Shown one piece after another: positions 1,826 through 48,240 of a stretch of 64,000 bases of DNA. The notes under the pieces are model-generated. The model saw only the letters and a list, made by a program, of their open reading frames with translations, made no database searches and was not told the origin of the DNA. Position numbers and translations under genes: made by a program. Source of the stretch: an uncultured Candidatus Peregrinibacteria bacterium (lineage in GTDB: Bacteria; Patescibacteriota; Gracilibacteria; Peribacterales; Peribacteraceae); assembly GCA_937863435.1 (NCBI GenBank), contig CALMES010000147.1, forward strand, positions 1,639 to 65,638, read 5' to 3'. Position 1 is the stretch's first letter; each line of letters opens with the position of its first letter.

Positions 1826-4800
1826 ATGCGTCGGCGCACATTTTTGGGCAGCATAGGTCTCATGGGTCTTGCATTGCTGCAAAGCGCTCAGGCTGAGCAG
1901 TTTCAGCCAAAATATAACAATCCACAAACGTACGCCGAGGTGCAAAAGGGCATTGCCGAACTGAAGAAAAATATTGAGAGCGTCCAGTGCGGCGGCTGGC
2001 AGTCCGGCACAGAAGAAGAGGATGCAGCCAGTATGGGCGGCTGCAACGTACAGATACGCTGCGCCAGTGACAGTGCGGCGGCCACCGGCCCGGGAGACGG
2101 CAGCGATGAGGGCGGAGACATCGGCATCTGCTACGGCCGTGTCGCTTTCGCCAGCCGTAAAGATGCATCCGGCACCATGAATGTCTGTTCATCACGACCG
2201 AAAAACAACAAGGGCGAAACATACTTTCTTATTCATGAACTGGCCCATACGCTGCAATTCTGTCCGCATCGCGTGGGGGAGAGCGTGATTCATTCCCGCG
2301 AAACGTGCTGCAAATACGAGCGCGAAGCCTATCGCGCGCAATGCCAGGCAATGGCGGAAGACGGACAGCTTTCCGGCATTTCGATTGATCAGTGTGCCGA
2401 CTACGGCGCGTCCTATTTAAGCTGCGACAAATACGGTGTCAATGCGTGCGGCGTTCCGCCGATTGAGCCTGCAATGCAGATCACCATCCGCAAAGCGCTC
2501 TACGACGGCGGCGGCAAAACATGTGCGCAGGAAACAGCCGGACTCGACACAAAAAACCCGGACGCCAGCGGAGCCGACCCCCGTATCAAGGCGCTGCTGA
2601 AGCAAATCAACAAGCTGTCGGACGACCAGACCAAAAGCTCGAGCAGCACACCCTCCGCATTCCCGATGCCTGTTGTGACGGGCGCGCCCGGACGGGCAAA
2701 TCCCACCCCGACCGCGGACATAAAGCTGGGCGTCGGCGTACGCGCCGCATTCACCTTCCCCGACACGACCCTGGGCTTCAAGACCGCTTGTGACATCCAT
2801 CAGGCAAAAGACGCTCGCGGCAACGACATCAACCCTGAACGTCTGTGCATCAATGAAAATCCCGAACGAAACACTCCCAAAGACTGTAAAAAATTGTACG
2901 ATTTTCTGATCCGCCAGCAAAAGGACGCCAGACGCAATGACAACTGTGACGGCAGCAAGGAGAAGCTCTGCTTCGACTACACAGGCGTGTGTACCGGCCA
3001 GGGCTGCCGCACGCCGTTCTTTCCCGCATTTTCCTACACTCCACCCGTGTGTCCGCCACCGCCGCTGCCTGTGGTACCCGAGCAGGTGACGCAAAAACAA
3101 TCTTCGTTTTACCGCCACTACACAGTGACCGTTGATGCGCCGCAGAGTAATCACTGGGACGTAAGCGGGGAGTGTTACGACTGGTACATCGAGAAAGACC
3201 CTGAGCTGAACATGACCGTCAAAAAAAAGGCCGGCGGCAGTTACGCCGATACCAGGCCGTACGAACAGTGCGAGGTGAAAATCGGCAAAGACACATCGGC
3301 ATTCGAGAGCTCGTCTTCTTCTGCGGGCACGGCATCCGTGACACCGGGCGGTTCAGCCGGAAGTGCCGCTCCAAACATCACTCCCGAATGGAAACCGGCG
3401 AGTGACCAGAAGGGACAGTTCTGGCCGCAGAAAGGACTCGTCGGCCCGACCGATGATGACAGACAGCCGCGCACTGCCGCCGATCCGTGGGTAGCCGACG
3501 CGCAGACGAATCTGTCAATTCTGGACATGAAGAAAGCGAAAGATGTCACCAAAAACCTGGATGATGAAAACGACATCACGCCGTTTGCCACCAACCTGAT
3601 CGCCATCCGTCAAAAGGCCAGCAAGGCGATTGGGGCTCAGTCGCGTACCGACGATTTCGACGACACGGGCGAGCGCGGGTTTGTCAGCTGGTGGCTTACG
3701 CAGCAGCAGGAAATTATGAAGATTGTTCGCCAGCCGCAGGTACGACTGCTGCTTCCGTCGCGCTTCATTACCGGGCTCGATGAAACCGATGCGCTGTTTG
3801 CCTACGCCAAAGACAGCATTTCACAATCCAACGGCTACAGCGAAATCACCGTTCATGCCGGCTCCGAGGAGCTGGGCAATCTTCTGCAGTCGCTTCAGCA
3901 CAGTTTCTTCCTGCCGATTCAGGAGGTGCGCGTGCCTGTCATCGTGCCGCTGCTGTCGGAAACCGAAGCCAACACACGTATTGCCGAGTGGAAGTTATGG
4001 CAGCAGGAAAATCCTGCACACAAAGCCGATGCCGAGCCGTTCATTCACAAAATTGAAAGCTACCGCGACGCTGCGTTGCGGGTTCGCGACATGCGATCCG
4101 TCCTGCCGGCACGATCGAAGCAGCTGCTCACAGTCCAGAAGCAGATCCGCGGATTCTATGCCAGCTGGTATCTGCAGAACGCCAAGCGCGTCCAGCAATG
4201 GTCGCAGGTGAACGTCGTGCGCACGCAGATCAAGAAAACATGGAATACCATGGCAACAGCCCTGCTCGACGCATCGGCGTGCCAGCTGCAGTGGTGCAGC
4301 AATCAGCGCTACTCGCTGGCGGTTTACTCGCTGCTCGACGGATGGTTCCGCAAAACAGACAGAATACTGTTGAGCGCCACCGACCTCTCCAGTCTGCGGT
4401 ATCGTCCGCCCCGCGATCAGTCGATTGATTTTTCGTGGTTGCAACTGGGGTCAGGATCCAGTCTGCAGATGCCGGTGCTGTGGCCGGTACAAGTGCGTCT
4501 GACCATCCCCCTGCCTCCCCACAGCCTGAATGCGACACTGCCGGATATCGACGATTATCCCGACGTTCCGCAGTACGCCGATAACTACGCGGACTTGTTT
4601 GGCAGCATGCCGGTCCCCGACGTGCGTTTTCCTGCCGGCATCATTCCCCGCAACGAGGATTTTTCGGATTTTGCCATCAGCGATGCCTATCTGGTACCGC
4701 CCGTGGAGCGTGAAGACGTCCTCACGCAGGCACAGCAGATGCTTGATGCCCTGTCTTCTTCGTTTCAGGGCGATGACACCAGCCGCGACAATCTGAAGGG

Positions 4801-10401: not shown

Positions 10402-10410
10402 TGCTAAGAT
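10402..10410 (+). promoter_or_regulatory. extended -10 box TGCTAAGAT
   Basis: It matches the window-wide TGCTAnAnT motif. It lies 6 nt upstream of an in-frame ATC at 10417. Confidence 0.45.
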
Positions 10411-10443
10411 CACCCTATCTCCTCAACTATTTTCATCGCCGGC

Positions 10444-10989
10444 TTGTCGTGGAGCACGACCGAAGAAACGCTCAAGAAGTATTTTACGCCGATTGCGTCT
10501 GTCGTGTCGGTCCGGCTCACGAAAGATCCGAAGACCGGCAAATCCAAAGGATACGCTTTCATCGAATTCCAAACGCCGGAGATTGCCAAAAAAGTGATGC
10601 GCCAGTGCGATGGCAAAAATTGCGATGGCCGGACAATGCGCATCGATATCGCAAAAGAAGAACCGGCGGAGCCGTGCAAGCTGTATGTATCAGGCTTGCC
10701 GCAGGGCATTTCGGAAGAAGCGCTGATCCGTCATTTATCGCAGGCCGGACAACTGGTGAGCGCCAAGATCGCGCACGAGGCCGGCAGCACCCGCAACCGC
10801 GGCTTTGCGTTTGTGGAAACAGAGACCGACGCAGATGTAGAGGCGATTATTGAGGCGCTGGATGGATCGATTTTGAATGATTCGAGACTGAGTATTAAAC
10901 GTGCGCGACCGAAGACGGATAAGGCGCCGATTGAGGGGAAAAGAAGAGGCGAGCAAGACACTAAAAACGCTAATGCAATTGAAAACTAA
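10444..10989 (+). CDS. RNA-binding protein with two RRM domains
   Basis: RNP-1 motifs KGYAFIEF and RGFAFVET are present. The track start is a TTG inside the first RNP-2 motif. The in-frame upstream sequence encodes IFIAG, so the true start is probably ATC at 10417. Confidence 0.8.
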   Translation: MSWSTTEETLKKYFTPIASVVSVRLTKDPKTGKSKGYAFIEFQTPEIAKKVMRQCDGKNCDGRTMRIDIAKEEPAEPCKLYVSGLPQGISEEALIRHLSQAGQLVSAKIAHEAGSTRNRGFAFVETETDADVEAIIEALDGSILNDSRLSIKRARPKTDKAPIEGKRRGEQDTKNANAIEN

Positions 10990-41320: not shown

Positions 41321-41391
41321 TTCCTAATATTATAGCGGATTTTGGGGTTTTTTACAACAGATGGGATGGGGGAGCCGAGGTTCCCCTGCCG

Positions 41392-41739
41392 TCACGTGTT
41401 GCGGTACAGGTGAGCCGCAGTGGACAGACTTATTATTCCTATAGCCAGAAACGTCATTGCGTACACGCATTTTTCTCGTGGAGTGATGCGCGTGCTTCTC
41501 ATTAGACTCCTTTGCTCCTTTTCGAGCTTGCTTCTTGCTCTGGGCGAGATCTCTTCATCGAGCTTTCTGTCGAGAAGATCCATCTTCTGCATCATGCCTT
41601 TCATGCTTGTCTTGTAGACGAAGTTTTGAAGCGCCAACTGGCTGAATGCAATGATGGAAATGGTCATGGCGGCAAGGCCGATCAGGTAGATGGTGCCGAC
41701 GCAAAAGAGGCGAATGAGATGCAGAGATACGAGCGACAT
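41392..41739 (-). CDS. small membrane protein (115 aa)
   Basis: Two TM helices flank a charged coiled segment. This is one of the few genes with an SD-like AGGAGA upstream. Confidence 0.5.
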   Translation of the reverse strand: MSLVSLHLIRLFCVGTIYLIGLAAMTISIIAFSQLALQNFVYKTSMKGMMQKMDLLDRKLDEEISPRARSKLEKEQRSLMRSTRITPREKCVYAMTFLAIGIISLSTAAHLYRNT

Positions 41740-45807: not shown

Positions 45808-46731
45808 ATGCTCAAAACATCCATCGCCGGCGTCGCATTTCCATCGTACATTTTCAACGCATCTGGCCCATGCGACACCACTTTTGAAGAATTGTCCGCA
45901 ATTGGCGCATCGCAATGCGGAGCGATTACGATGAAATCGAGTACACTCGAGTTTCGTGCGGGTAACGAAGAGCCGCGCTATGTTCGCGTGCCGCTTGGCT
46001 CTATCAACAGCATGGGTTTGCCGAATTTGGGCTACAAACAGTACATTGATTTTGCTCCAAAGCTCAAACAATATAACAAACCGATTGTCGCGAGTTTGGC
46101 CGGACTTTCGCCCGATGAATTTCCTGTACTGGTCAAAGCATTTCAGGAAAGTGATGCCGATGTGATCGAAGTGAATCTGTCGTGTCCGAATGTGAAAGGC
46201 AAGCCGCAGATTGGCTACGATTTTGCCATGTCGGAGCAGGTTCTTAAAAGCATCATGAACCTTGGCTCGAAACCTCTTGGCGTGAAATTGCCACCGTACT
46301 TCGATGCAGTGCATTGGGATCAGATGGCGGAAATTCTGCTCAAATTCCCACTCGCATTCGTCTGCTGCATTAATTCGGTTGGCAATACGCTCATCATCGA
46401 TCCGGAAACCGAACGGCCGCTCATCAAGCCTAAAGGCGGCTTTGGCGGTTTGGGTGGCGAATACATCAAGCCAGTAGCGCTTGCCAACGTGCGGGCATTC
46501 TACGAACGTCTGCAAGGAAAAATTGCAGTGATTGGCGTCGGTGGCATTGCAACTGGAACAGATGCATTTGAATTTCTCCTGGCTGGTGCTGACGCTGTGC
46601 AAGTCGGCACGCAATTCGAGAAAGAAGGGCCGGATTGTTTTGAGCGAATTTCTCGCGAGCTGGAGCAAATATTGAAGCGAAAGGGCTATGCGGATATTGC
46701 GGCGGCGAAGGGGAAGTTGAAGATTTTATAG
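45808..46731 (+). CDS. pyrD: dihydroorotate dehydrogenase, class 1
   Basis: The motif NASGP is present, along with the active-site Cys context NLSCPNV and GGIATG. Confidence 0.9.
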   Translation: MLKTSIAGVAFPSYIFNASGPCDTTFEELSAIGASQCGAITMKSSTLEFRAGNEEPRYVRVPLGSINSMGLPNLGYKQYIDFAPKLKQYNKPIVASLAGLSPDEFPVLVKAFQESDADVIEVNLSCPNVKGKPQIGYDFAMSEQVLKSIMNLGSKPLGVKLPPYFDAVHWDQMAEILLKFPLAFVCCINSVGNTLIIDPETERPLIKPKGGFGGLGGEYIKPVALANVRAFYERLQGKIAVIGVGGIATGTDAFEFLLAGADAVQVGTQFEKEGPDCFERISRELEQILKRKGYADIAAAKGKLKIL

Positions 46732-46956
46732 AATCGGAATATTTCGATTTATATTGCCATTGCCGTGAGACGCCCCGGACTGAATCTTTGCAACTCAACG
46801 ATTTGGCTGGATGCTGATTATTGAACTAGTCGGGGCGTCTGTATTTAAAAAATTTATAAATTCTTTCAATTATTTCCGAGATTAGGAAATCTTCCCTATA
46901 ATAGCCATATATCAGCAATCCTCATCCGCGGCGGCCATGTTGTATCGTCCAAAGGG

Positions 46957-48240
46957 ATGCGGCTGGCGGATGTGTTGTATGAGAATGGGGAAGTAAAAAA
47001 AGTAGGTGATAATCTTCAGTCGGAGCCGCATGCCGATCTCATAGAGGCCGAAGGCATGTTGCTCTTTCCGGGGCTCATCGATTGCCATGTGCATTTTCGC
47101 GAGCCGGGCTTGGAGCACAAAGCGACACTGGAAAGTGAAGCGCGTTGTGCAAGGCTTGGCGGTATTACGACCGTGTGCGAAATGCCGAATACCGTTCCGC
47201 CGACAGTCACGATTGTCGCGCTTGCAGACAAAGTGCGTCGGGCCGAAAAAGTGCGGGGATTCGATTTTCATTTTTTCTTCGGTGTTACCGAAGCTGCGCA
47301 TCTGCACGCTCTGCGCGAACTTTGGACAGGTGAATCGGCAGAGCTCCGACGCCTGAAAAAATATTGCTGCGGTGTGAAATTATTTTTGGATCACTCAACG
47401 GGCAATCAAATGGTCGCGCGCGAACTGATCGATGATATTTTTGCTGCGTGTGCCAAGTTACACATTCCGCTTGTCGCTCACTGCGAAGATCCGGAGATCA
47501 ATGCTGCTGCGGCACAAGCAAACAAATCTACGGATATTAGTGCTCATTCACTCATGCGTCCGCCAGAATCAGAAGCGTCATCGATTAGCTTTGCACTCGA
47601 AAAAGTACGCACGCATGGAACCGCGTTACACATCGCGCATCTTTCTACTAAGCAGGGAATTGAACTTGTCCGTCAGGCAAAAAAGGATGGCCTGCCCGTG
47701 ACCTGCGAAGTGTGCCCGCACCATTTACTGCTCTTGACCGATGATTATTCGTGGCTTGGCACGCGCGGGAAAATGAATCCACCATTGCGATCTGCTGATC
47801 ATCTCAAAATGTTATGGAAAGGAATTGCTGATCATACTGTTGATTGTGTTTCGACGGATCATGCACCGCACACCATCGACGAAAAAAACGCGCTCGAAGC
47901 TCTCAAGGCGCCAAGCGGCGTGCCCGGAGTGGAGACGATGGTGCCGCTGCTTTTGAGTGTCGTGGCTGGGAAGTGGCCGACGAATAATCAGAAACGAATT
48001 ACGAATTACGAATTACGAATTACGCCGGAAGATATTCTTCGGCTCTGTTTTACGAATCCGAATCAGATTTTCTCTTTGGGACGCGAAGAGATTTCTGAAG
48101 GAGCGAAGACGCCGATTGTGATTATCGATCCAGCGGTTGAATGGACAATCAGCGCCGAAAACCAGCACAGCAAATGCGGCTGGACGCCGTACGAGGGCTG
48201 GAACGTCACCGGAAAAGTTATGCAGATTGTAGGATCTTAA
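46957..48240 (+). CDS. pyrC: dihydroorotase
   Basis: The motif DCHVHFREPG is present. The conserved N-terminal strand ILIRGGHVV is encoded in frame upstream of the first ATG, so the start is probably ATA at 46909. A repeat-derived insertion lies at 47974-48021. Confidence 0.9.
   Translation: MRLADVLYENGEVKKVGDNLQSEPHADLIEAEGMLLFPGLIDCHVHFREPGLEHKATLESEARCARLGGITTVCEMPNTVPPTVTIVALADKVRRAEKVRGFDFHFFFGVTEAAHLHALRELWTGESAELRRLKKYCCGVKLFLDHSTGNQMVARELIDDIFAACAKLHIPLVAHCEDPEINAAAAQANKSTDISAHSLMRPPESEASSISFALEKVRTHGTALHIAHLSTKQGIELVRQAKKDGLPVTCEVCPHHLLLLTDDYSWLGTRGKMNPPLRSADHLKMLWKGIADHTVDCVSTDHAPHTIDEKNALEALKAPSGVPGVETMVPLLLSVVAGKWPTNNQKRITNYELRITPEDILRLCFTNPNQIFSLGREEISEGAKTPIVIIDPAVEWTISAENQHSKCGWTPYEGWNVTGKVMQIVGS

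What the first reader, a model, noticed from the sequence alone, without database searches (positions are those of the whole stretch)
46897..46959. pyrC likewise seems to start at ATA in the leaderless position
The first ATG of dihydroorotase is at 46957. The frame upstream encodes S-A-I-L-I-R-G-G-H-V-V-S-S-K-G. This matches the conserved first beta-strand of bacterial dihydroorotases (compare YLIKNGWIL at the Bacillus PyrC N-terminus). No canonical start exists between the in-frame TAA at 46846-46848 and 46957. A perfect TATAAT at 46897-46902 is followed after 6 nt by ATA at 46909 in frame. This is a second independent case of an AUH codon sitting exactly where leaderless genes here place AUG.
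Basis: partly seen in the sequence, partly recalled or inferred. Interest (0 to 1): 0.6.

Follow-up and report, generated by a model that had tools for sequence, protein, structure and literature searches.

The report
Dihydroorotase gene starting at leaderless ATA
In an uncultured Peribacteria (CPR) bacterium, the pyrimidine-synthesis gene pyrC has ATA where all relatives have the ATG/GTG start codon, directly behind a promoter that should make an mRNA with no leader; this layout is conserved across its genus and recurs in the deformylase gene, so these bacteria probably start translation on a codon that textbook bacteria barely use.

Summary
TATAAT lies at 46897-46902, followed by 6 nt and then ATA at 46909, in frame with pyrC. 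There is no ATG, GTG or TTG between the stop at 46846 and ATG 46957.

- **Ancestral start position.** The ATA aligns exactly with the start codon (ATG, once GTG) of 12 orthologues in related genera.
- **Conservation.** Five sequences from at least three lineages of this genus keep TATAAT-N6-ATA, although pyrC has diverged to dS about 0.94 (omega 0.075).
- **Coding signal.** The five substitutions in codons 2-16 are four synonymous changes and one V>I.
- **Promoter geometry.** It matches the genome's own leaderless class: TAnnnT at -12, pyrimidine at -1, A at +1. The 5' end is unstructured.
- **Other genes.** The only def gene has TACAAT-N6-ATA, also conserved in the sister species. Its 34 codons before the first canonical start show 14 synonymous and 1 non-synonymous change. 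An RRM gene has ATC in the same position.

Caveats:
- ATH codons are not statistically enriched genome-wide at the leaderless position.
- Some related PyrC proteins naturally lack the N-terminal 45 residues, so the "missing strand" argument is weak.

Best reading: leaderless initiation at AUA, confidence about 0.58.

The parts
45808..46731 (+). pyrD (dihydroorotate dehydrogenase), the co-oriented gene upstream
   Evidence: Pfam PF01180, E = 3.8e-81; ORF.
46768..46840 (+). Long hairpin after pyrD, followed by a T/A-rich tract. Probably a pyrD terminator or a REP-like element that insulates pyrC from read-through.
   Evidence: RNA fold -28.4 kcal/mol, z = -2.85. The stems GAGACGCCCCGG/CCGGGGCGTC are conserved in G001 while the loop is unrelated.
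46874..46879 (+). Weak -35-like element TTCCGA, 17 nt upstream of the -10 box
   Evidence: Sequence. The genome's leaderless promoters show T/T enrichment at -35/-34.
46897..46902 (+). Perfect -10 hexamer TATAAT
   Evidence: Invariant in five genus-level sequences. Lies at the modal -12 position of the genome's leaderless genes.
46909..46911 (+). ATA: proposed start codon. Its A is the predicted +1 of the mRNA (T at -1, A at +1, T at +2).
   Evidence: Aligns with the ATG/GTG start of 12 orthologues. Conserved in L001, L071, G001 and L074. Matches the Y-1/R+1 start element (PMC12641261).
46909..48240 (+). pyrC coding sequence as proposed: 443 codons plus stop (type I dihydroorotase)
   Evidence: Pfam Amidohydro_1. 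Full-length alignment to 3MPG, 3GRI and others, E about 1e-57. AF2 model with pLDDT 90.6. omega = 0.075 against G001.
46912..46956 (+). Codons 2-16 (SAILIRGGHVVSSKG), which encode beta-strand 1 of the adjacent domain and lie upstream of the first canonical start
   Evidence: Strand 4-13 in the model, pLDDT 92-97. Five substitutions among five sequences: four synonymous at third positions and one V>I. dS is 0.175 here against 1.0 in the rest of the gene.
46957..46959 (+). First ATG (Met17), the start used by the public gene call (427 aa). This is the rival start site.
   Evidence: P0123. The only purine-rich motif before it (AAAGGG) abuts the ATG directly.
10405..10419 (+). Same layout at the RRM gene: TAAGAT (with TGC before it), 6 nt, then ATC at 10417
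   Evidence: Orthologues in G001, G003 and G007 have ATG at this codon.

Best explanation
**Proposed mechanism.** pyrC in this Peribacteria genus is transcribed from its own sigma-70-type promoter (TATAAT 46897-46902). Transcription starts at A46909, so the mRNA has no 5' leader, and its first three bases, AUA, serve as the start codon. Initiator tRNA(CAU) would read AUA with a third-position mismatch. This most likely happens on a 70S-type leaderless initiation complex. The product is the full 443-residue dihydroorotase, which begins where every orthologue begins.

**Origin.** The ATA arose by a G>A change of the ancestral ATG in the common ancestor of the genus. That followed a rearrangement in which pyrC lost its translational coupling to pyrB and acquired its own promoter. 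The ATA has been kept since then. It probably gives low but sufficient expression.

**What is shown and what is inferred.**
- Shown: the position of the ATA at the ancestral start, its conservation, the coding-type substitution pattern, purifying selection on the gene, and the fit of the promoter geometry.
- Inferred: the exact 5' end, the use of AUA rather than another codon, and the 70S route.
For: 1. **Ancestral start position.** Twelve orthologues in other genera start with ATG (one with GTG in a TATTCT-N6-GTG layout) at the codon aligned to ATA 46909. All give M-x-x-[ILT]-L-[IL]-x-G-G.
2. **Conservation.** Five sequences of the genus (window, L001, L071, G001, L074) keep TATAAT-AGCCAT-ATA unchanged. 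Over the same divergence pyrC has dS 0.94, dN 0.07 and omega 0.075. The gene has therefore stayed functional with this start.
3. **Coding signal.** In codons 2-16 the five observed substitutions are four synonymous third-position changes plus V>I. The chance of at least 4 of 5 falling on third positions is about 0.045. The flanking non-coding DNA carries 1-nt and 5-nt indels.
4. **No conserved upstream start.** In-frame upstream ATGs are absent in the window, lie at -31 codons in L001/L071, and at -9 codons in G001/L074. They are created by indels, and the one in G001 lies upstream of the -10 box.
5. **Leaderless class in this genome.** TAnnnT peaks at -12. ATG, GTG and TTG are all enriched at that offset. 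Position -1 is a pyrimidine and +1 is A. The pyrC promoter scores at the median of that class.
6. **Unstructured 5' end, no SD.** The first 30 nt are less structured than 197 of 200 shuffles. No Shine-Dalgarno motif precedes ATA.
7. **Precedent in the same genome.** The single def gene has TACAAT-N6-ATA (TACACT-N6-ATA in G001). Its first canonical start is 35 codons downstream, and those codons show 14 synonymous and 1 non-synonymous difference. Translation must therefore begin at or near that ATA. The RRM gene has ATC in the same layout.
8. **Possibly permissive background.** The initiator tRNA has A29:U41 instead of the first of the three conserved G:C pairs, throughout the family.
Against: - No transcription start site, ribosome or peptide data were available.
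- In tested bacteria, leaderless translation is strongly AUG-dependent (AUG and GUG in mycobacteria). In Caulobacter, AUA, AUU and AUC at the 5' end drastically lower reporter output (PMC8459731). On leadered E. coli reporters AUA gives about 3% of AUG (PMC3643588).
- ATH codons are not enriched genome-wide at the leaderless offset.
- Synonymous divergence in codons 2-16 is five-fold lower than in the rest of the gene. A conserved non-coding 5' UTR would also produce this.
- Some family members have PyrC proteins without the first ~45 residues, so a product from Met17 might still work.
- Most genes of this genome lack an SD, so SD-less initiation at the internal ATG 46957 is not excluded.
Confidence: 0.58

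Rival explanations
1. Translation starts at ATG 46957 (Met17), as in the public gene call (427 aa). The transcript from the TATAAT promoter would then carry a 48-nt untranslated leader. That leader would be a relic of the former N-terminal codons, kept for a nucleotide-level (regulatory or stability) function.
For: - ATG 46957 is conserved in all five genus sequences.
- Codons 1-10 are invariant even at synonymous sites, and dS is 0.175 for codons 2-16 against 1.0 elsewhere, as expected for a constrained UTR.
- Most genes here have no SD, so an SD-less internal AUG could be used.
- Natural PyrC variants lacking the N-terminal ~45 residues exist in the family.
Against: - The substitutions that do occur in codons 2-16 are four synonymous and one V>I.
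- The peptide is as similar to outgroup N-termini as the rest of the protein is. It shares 11 of 15 residues with G017, against 56% identity overall.
- A Met17 product would lose strand 4-13 but keep its partner strand 16-25. That differs from the clean deletion seen in the short natural variants.
- The same layout in def cannot be explained this way.
- The -10 box sits exactly 6 nt before the ancestral start, which would be a coincidence under this reading.
Confidence: 0.2
2. pyrC is translated from a longer, leadered or pyrD-pyrC read-through mRNA. Initiation occurs at ATA, at another near-cognate codon, or at the strain-specific upstream ATGs, by ordinary 30S loading or by re-initiation after pyrD. 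The TATAAT would then be incidental or a minor promoter.
For: - pyrD lies 177 nt upstream on the same strand.
- Gene callers extend the ORF to upstream ATGs in L001/L071 (474 aa) and G001 (451 aa, MBP9773876.1).
- infC in this genus uses a leadered CTG start, so leadered near-cognate initiation does occur here.
Against: - The upstream ATGs are at different positions in different lineages, are absent in the window, and are created by frame-changing indels.
- A strong conserved-stem hairpin plus a T-rich tract lies between pyrD and pyrC.
- No SD or purine-rich tract precedes ATA.
- The exact -12 geometry and the Y-1/A+1 context are shared with def and the RRM gene.
Confidence: 0.12
3. The ATA is a sequencing or assembly error, or a recent inactivating mutation, and pyrC is a decaying gene.
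For: The assembly is a metagenome bin with 168 contigs and 5.4% contamination. PyrC is absent from some related genomes (13 of 41 have no match).
Against: - The same ATA is found in five independent contigs from different samples.
- There are no internal stops.
- omega is 0.075 over dS 0.94.
- pyrB and pyrD are intact nearby.
Confidence: 0.03

Closest known systems
Bacterial leaderless mRNAs (Mycobacterium, Caulobacter crescentus, Deinococcus, Streptomyces; phage lambda cI)
   Same: A -10 hexamer lies 6-7 nt before the first base of the start codon. There is no Shine-Dalgarno motif and the 5' end is unstructured. In this genome GTG, and to some extent TTG, are also enriched at the leaderless position, as GUG is in mycobacteria.
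   Different: Known natural leaderless starts are AUG (plus GUG, and rarely UUG). In Caulobacter reporters AUA, AUU and AUC drastically reduce output, and only 4.4% of its leaderless mRNAs are non-AUG (PMC8459731). Here the 5'-terminal codon is AUA (AUC in the RRM gene), and it is conserved.
Mammalian mitochondrial leaderless mRNAs with AUA/AUU/AUC start codons
   Same: A leaderless mRNA combined with an AUH start codon, and an initiator tRNA that departs from the canonical three G:C pairs (PMC8459731 and PMC11775629; for this genome).
   Different: In mitochondria AUA is a Met codon, read with the help of f5C34 (PMC3643588). Here AUA is an ordinary Ile codon: a tRNA-Ile(UAU) is present, and ATA at 47041-47043 aligns with I/V in orthologues. 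Only a few genes are affected.
Rare non-canonical AUH/CUG starts on leadered bacterial mRNAs (E. coli infC AUU; NCBI table 11 lists ATA, ATT, ATC and CTG as starts)
   Same: A near-cognate codon occupies the orthologous start position and is conserved, presumably giving low or regulated initiation. This genus's own infC uses CTG where relatives have TTG or GTG.
   Different: Those cases rely on an SD-containing or otherwise leadered initiation region and on IF3-dependent discrimination. Here there is no leader or SD.
Type I (long, Bacillus/Aquifex/Staphylococcus-type) dihydroorotase PyrC, e.g. PDB 3MPG, 3GRI, 1XRT, 2Z00
   Same: Full-length alignment with E about 1e-57. The DCHVHF metal motif is present, and there is a composite beta 'adjacent' domain built from N- and C-terminal strands.
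   Different: Nothing unusual in the enzyme except a strain-variable heptad-repeat insertion near residue 360 and the start codon.

Membership tests
Type I dihydroorotase (PyrC; Pfam Amidohydro_1 PF01979 / DHOase PF12890) | Amidohydrolase TIM-barrel domain scoring above the curated cut-off | tested here: met
   PF01979: 55.5 bits against a cut-off of 25. PF12890 is precomputed on all close homologues.
Type I dihydroorotase (PyrC; Pfam Amidohydro_1 PF01979 / DHOase PF12890) | HxH metal-binding motif after strand 1 of the barrel, and end-to-end similarity to solved DHOases | tested here: met
   LIDCHVHFREPG aligns with LVDVHVHLREPG of 3MPG. Query residues 5-442 align with chain residues 4-416, E = 9.6e-58. 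D58, H60 and H62 are invariant in 32 homologues.
Type I dihydroorotase (PyrC; Pfam Amidohydro_1 PF01979 / DHOase PF12890) | N-terminal strands contributing to the adjacent beta domain | tested here: met
   The model has strands 4-13, 16-25 and 28-33 with pLDDT 92-97. These are present only if translation starts at or near 46909.
Leaderless mRNA | Transcription start coincides with the first base of the start codon | not testable with these tools
Only the geometry is available: the hexamer ends 6 nt before A46909, and the context is T-1/A+1/T+2.
Leaderless mRNA | -10 element at the distance used by the organism's own leaderless genes, with no Shine-Dalgarno motif | tested here: met
   The TAnnnT peak at -12 is 137 against about 30 background. 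PWM percentile 52; 3.4% of control sites score as well. There is no purine-rich tract before ATA.
Leaderless mRNA | 5'-terminal AUG (or GUG), as required in the bacteria studied | tested here: not met
   The codon is ATA in all five genus sequences. This is the departure that makes the case unusual (PMC8459731).
Leaderless mRNA | Low secondary structure at the 5' end | tested here: met
   The first 30 nt have MFE -1.5 kcal/mol, and 197 of 200 shuffles fold at least as well. The first 9 nt are unpaired in the 50-nt fold.
Mitochondria-type AUA initiation | AUA decoded as Met in elongation (reassigned codon, modified tRNA-Met) | tested here: not met
   A tRNA-Ile(UAU) gene is present. ATA at 47041-47043 aligns with I/V in orthologues.
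IF3-regulated non-canonical start (infC-type) | Near-cognate start on a leadered mRNA whose use responds to IF3 | tested here: inconclusive
   IF3 is encoded and itself starts at CTG on a leadered mRNA. pyrC shows no leader or SD, and the IF3 response cannot be tested.

The most novel reading that the evidence does not exclude
A genus of Peribacteria (CPR) uses 5'-terminal AUH codons as real, selection-maintained start codons of leaderless mRNAs for housekeeping genes: def and pyrC with AUA, and an RRM protein with AUC. So far this combination is documented only in mitochondria. A relaxed P-site check would make it possible. The family-wide initiator tRNA has A29:U41 in place of the first of the three G:C pairs, and no clear RsmD (m2G966) gene was found. 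The weak codon may serve as a set-point for low expression. For pyrC, the A/T alternation around +1 (ATATAT) might additionally make productive initiation sensitive to the ATP/UTP balance.
Probability: 0.35. Interest if true: 0.75.

Novelty: new variant of a known kind. Interest (0 to 1): 0.55.

Why it matters
**Translation initiation.** If correct, the rule "leaderless needs AUG (or GUG)", derived from E. coli, Caulobacter, mycobacteria and haloarchaea, does not hold in at least one CPR lineage. Third-position near-cognate starts would then be usable without any leader or SD, even for an enzyme that is normally essential (peptide deformylase).

**Annotation.** Gene finders give three different, mutually inconsistent N-termini for the same pyrC in sister strains (427, 451 and 474 aa). 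They would truncate def by 35 residues and cut the RRM gene inside its RNP2 motif. CPR annotation pipelines therefore need a leaderless, near-cognate start model.

**Testability.** The three promoter-start cassettes are short and can be moved into reporters. The family-wide A29:U41 initiator tRNA offers a concrete hypothesis to test.

Tried and rejected
1. **Genome-wide enrichment of ATA/ATT/ATC at the leaderless offset.** I tested three filters: a strict or loose -10, an upstream stop without a canonical start, and coding-potential filtering. None showed enrichment over neighbouring offsets. The phenomenon is a few genes, not a class visible statistically.
2. **Dicodon coding-potential score of codons 1-17.** The score of 1.7 lies between coding (6.1 +/- 4.5) and off-frame (-11.7 +/- 8.5) and is not decisive.
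3. **Motif-free scan for genes whose coding signal extends upstream of the first canonical start.** It recovered def and the prfB frameshift. It also found one large membrane protein on C106 with no clear start. It gave no further clean leaderless AUH cases.
4. **infC as a fourth leaderless case (TACAAT-N6-ATT inside the ORF).** Rejected. G001 has TACAAC and ATC there, and a CTG/TTG/GTG-CGN-CAR start 22 codons upstream is conserved across genera.
5. **Structural necessity of strand 1.** The model shows the strand, but natural short PyrC variants weaken the argument.
6. **Known RNA elements in 46600-47100.** None found: a single chance hit at E = 0.33.
7. **RsmD absence.** Only partial hits to the methyltransferase core inside larger ORFs, so inconclusive.
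8. **A-to-I editing of AUA to AUI, or codon reassignment.** Considered and set aside. There is no TadA-like UACG hairpin context, and AUA is Ile in elongation.
Full report
**Organism and locus.** The window is contig C147 (bases 1639-65638) of a 2.14-Mb, 168-contig metagenome bin with 50% G+C. The closest named PyrC homologues are from Candidatus Peribacteraceae / Peribacteria (CPR/Patescibacteria). The gene at issue is a type I dihydroorotase. It matches Pfam Amidohydro_1. It aligns end to end with solved DHOases 3MPG, 3GRI, 1XRT and 2Z00 at E about 1e-57. An AlphaFold2 model has mean pLDDT 90.6. pyrD lies directly upstream on the same strand.

**The observation.**
- TATAAT is at 46897-46902, followed by six bases (AGCCAT).
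- ATA is at 46909 in the pyrC frame.
- An in-frame TAA is at 46846.
- No ATG, GTG or TTG occurs before ATG 46957.

The 16 codons from ATA encode ISAILIRGGHVVSSKG.

**ATA sits at the ancestral start codon.** I fetched the orthologous loci from 40 related genomes and read twelve gene starts.
- Eleven orthologues have ATG and one has GTG at exactly the codon that aligns with ATA 46909. Examples are MKKTLLRGG, MSAILIRGG, MTSILIKNG, MSSTLIAGG and, with GTG, (M)SSILITGG.
- In most genera that ATG overlaps or abuts the stop of pyrB (ATGA overlaps), which indicates translational coupling.
- In this genus pyrC follows pyrD and has its own promoter.
- The GTG case (G015) has TATTCT-N6-GTG, the same leaderless geometry.

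**The ATA is old, real and kept.** Four further contigs of the genus carry the identical TATAAT-AGCCAT-ATA. They are L001 from ERZ724532, L071 from ERZ27248701 (also found in two SRA assemblies), the sister species G001, and L074.

Between G000 and G001, pyrC has dS = 0.94, dN = 0.07 and omega = 0.075. Synonymous sites are nearly saturated, yet the protein has been under strong purifying selection for the whole time both lineages have carried ATA. This excludes an assembly error and a decaying gene.

**Are codons 2-16 translated?** Several lines of evidence bear on this.
- Among the five sequences there are five substitutions in these codons: CAT>CAC, GTA>GTT, AAA>AAG and GGG>GGA (all synonymous) and GTT>ATT (V>I). 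The chance that at least four of five fall on third positions is about 0.045.
- The non-coding DNA just upstream carries 1-nt and 5-nt indels.
- Those indels create in-frame upstream ATGs at different places in different lineages: none in the window, -31 codons in L001/L071, and -9 codons in G001/L074. Public gene calls for the same protein are therefore 427, 474 and 451 aa.
- None of these upstream ATGs is conserved, and the one in G001 lies upstream of the -10 box.

One complication remains. Codons 1-10 are invariant even at synonymous sites, with dS 0.175 for codons 2-16 against 1.0 for the rest of the gene (P about 0.004). This fits selection on a leaderless initiation region, and the first 30 nt are less structured than 197 of 200 shuffles. 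It would also fit a constrained untranslated leader.

**Leaderless genes exist in this genome, and pyrC fits them.**
- Relative to the first ATG of 1853 long ORFs, TAnnnT peaks at -12 (137 against about 30 background). SD-like tetramers are weak.
- At that offset ATG (83 vs ~20) and GTG (31 vs ~10) are enriched, and TTG about twofold under the stricter filter.
- Eighty high-confidence leaderless-type starts show T-T at -35/-34, a TG at -15/-14, a pyrimidine at -1 (85%) and A at +1. This is the Y-1/R+1 'start element' described across bacteria (PMC12641261).
- A weight matrix built from the 64 ATG starts among them places the pyrC promoter at the 52nd percentile of true sites. Only 3.4% of control TAnnnT-N6-A sites score as well.
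- No known RNA family matches the region.

**Other genes with the same layout.**
- *RRM gene.* It has TGC-TAAGAT, 6 nt, then ATC (window 10417), encoding ISSTIFIAGLSW. The first canonical codon is a TTG inside the RNP2 motif. Orthologues in G001, G003 and G007 have ATG at that codon. G001 also has an 8-nt longer spacer.
- *def gene.* My scan found a third and stronger case, G000:C148:558-1022(-), the only peptide deformylase gene in the bin. It has TACAAT-ACCCCC-ATA, encoding ITILPIVIGQDQPILRAK, and the first canonical start is 35 codons downstream. G001 has TACACT-ATCCCC-ATA. Other genera have ATG or GTG there. Between G000 and G001 the 34 codons before the first canonical start differ at 14 synonymous and 1 non-synonymous codon, the same pattern as the rest of the gene (52 and 5). 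In def, translation must therefore begin at or very near the ATA.

Def is the best evidence that the translation system of this genus can use a 5'-proximal AUA without an SD.

**Limits on the general claim.** ATA, ATT and ATC are not enriched at the leaderless offset relative to neighbouring offsets under any filter I tried. A motif-free scan for coding signal upstream of the first canonical start added only the prfB frameshift and one unresolved membrane protein. The phenomenon concerns a few genes, perhaps 1-2% of leaderless genes.

**The structural argument.** In the model, residues 4-13 and 16-25 form a beta hairpin of the adjacent domain with pLDDT 92-97. Solved DHOases align from their residue 2-4. 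A Met17 product would therefore lose strand 1.

However, several Peribacteria orthologues naturally start about 45 residues later. P0100 and P0104 are 392 aa, and in G012 the ATG follows the pyrB stop directly. The N-terminal strands are therefore dispensable in some lineages, and this argument alone cannot decide the start site.

**Translation machinery.**
- IF3 is present. In this genus it begins at CTG on a leadered mRNA where relatives have TTG or GTG. This resembles classical infC autoregulation.
- AUA is an ordinary Ile codon. A tRNA-Ile(UAU) is encoded.
- The initiator tRNA (C1xA72) has A29:U41 in place of the first of the three conserved G:C pairs. This variant is found in nearly all 25 genomes of the family, but in only 2 of the 11 matched genomes of other families of the class; the rest carry the canonical GGG/CCC.
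- No full-length RsmD was detected, but the result is inconclusive.
- In E. coli, AUA gives about 3% of AUG on a leadered reporter, and loss of RsmD doubles it (PMC3643588).

These features are permissive hints, not demonstrations.

**Comparison with the literature.** In Caulobacter, replacing the 5'-terminal AUG of a leaderless reporter with AUA, AUU or AUC drastically lowers output. Only 4.4% of its natural leaderless mRNAs are non-AUG. E. coli and haloarchaea prefer AUG, and mycobacteria accept GUG. Only mammalian mitochondria commonly combine leaderless mRNAs with AUA/AUU/AUC (PMC8459731). A conserved leaderless AUA on bacterial housekeeping genes is therefore a new variant of known kinds (leaderless initiation and rare near-cognate starts), not a new kind of system.

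**Verdict.**
- Leaderless initiation at AUA 46909: about 0.58.
- Start at ATG 46957 behind a 48-nt conserved leader: about 0.20.
- Leadered or read-through initiation: about 0.12.
- Error or decay: about 0.03.

Direct 5'-end and peptide data are the missing, decisive pieces.

Noticed in passing
G000 contig C148:558-1022 (- strand), outside the window; G001 locus L033: The only peptide deformylase gene has TACAAT-N6-ATA at the orthologous start (TACACT-N6-ATA in the sister species). Its first canonical start is 35 codons downstream. Those codons show 14 synonymous and 1 non-synonymous difference.
   Followed up: yes
window 10405-10989 (+): The two-RRM protein gene has TGC-TAAGAT, 6 nt, then ATC where G001, G003 and G007 have ATG. 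G001 also has an 8-nt longer spacer between the -10 box and the start, so G000 combines a deletion with the ATG>ATC change.
   Followed up: partly
G000 contig C120:~3143-3718 (+); loci L059-L069: infC (IF3) has no ATG, GTG or TTG before its conserved NEQIRVPEV motif. A CTG-CGC-CAA (M-R-Q) start is shared with G001 and G006, while G003 and G005 have TTG and G008 has GTG at that codon. A pyrimidine-rich leader of about 35 nt follows a TTGACC/CATGCT promoter.
   Followed up: partly
G000 contig C106:40080-40156 (+) and 41366-41442 (+): The initiator tRNA (C1xA72) has A29:U41 instead of the first of the three conserved anticodon-stem G:C pairs. The variant AGGCUCAUAACCU occurs in nearly all 25 Peribacteraceae genomes searched, whereas most other families of the class have GGGCUCAUAACCC. 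A tRNA-Ile(UAU) gene lies 1.2 kb away.
   Followed up: partly
proteins P0100, P0104, P0107; locus L008 (G012) around 1486: Several Peribacteria PyrC orthologues lack the first ~45 residues (the N-terminal strands of the adjacent domain). In G012 the ATG follows the pyrB stop directly (TAAATG).
   Followed up: partly
window 46768-46840 (+): A 73-nt hairpin lies between pyrD and pyrC. Its stems are conserved in G001 but its loop is entirely different. It may be a terminator or a REP-like element (RAYT genes are nearby according to earlier notes).
   Followed up: partly
window ~47974-48024 (+), inside pyrC: The heptad-repeat insertion (KRITNYELRIT) differs between strains: SRHEVRITNDELRIT in G001 and MNHQGRITNDEARIT in P0124. 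It falls in the lowest-confidence loop of the model (pLDDT 55 around residues 361-370).
   Followed up: no
G000 contig C106, - strand, first canonical start at + coordinate ~62527: A protein of about 1080 aa has coding signal and a predicted transmembrane helix (ISALAASLSLAVVAGIATFSLV) that lie up to 59 codons upstream of the first canonical start. A TATAAT sits 5 nt before the open frame, but no start is evident. Possible explanations are an indel or another non-canonical start.
   Followed up: partly
G000 contig C120, - strand, around reverse-strand position 3645: The release factor 2 gene shows coding signal upstream of its first canonical start in this frame, as expected for the classical programmed +1 frameshift of prfB.
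   Followed up: no
whole genome G000: Only about 19% of 436 high-confidence ATG starts have an SD-like tetramer, and about 19% have a -10 box at -12 to -14. G is strongly depleted at -1 (8%). No 16S rRNA 3' end was found in the bin, so the anti-SD could not be read.
   Followed up: partly
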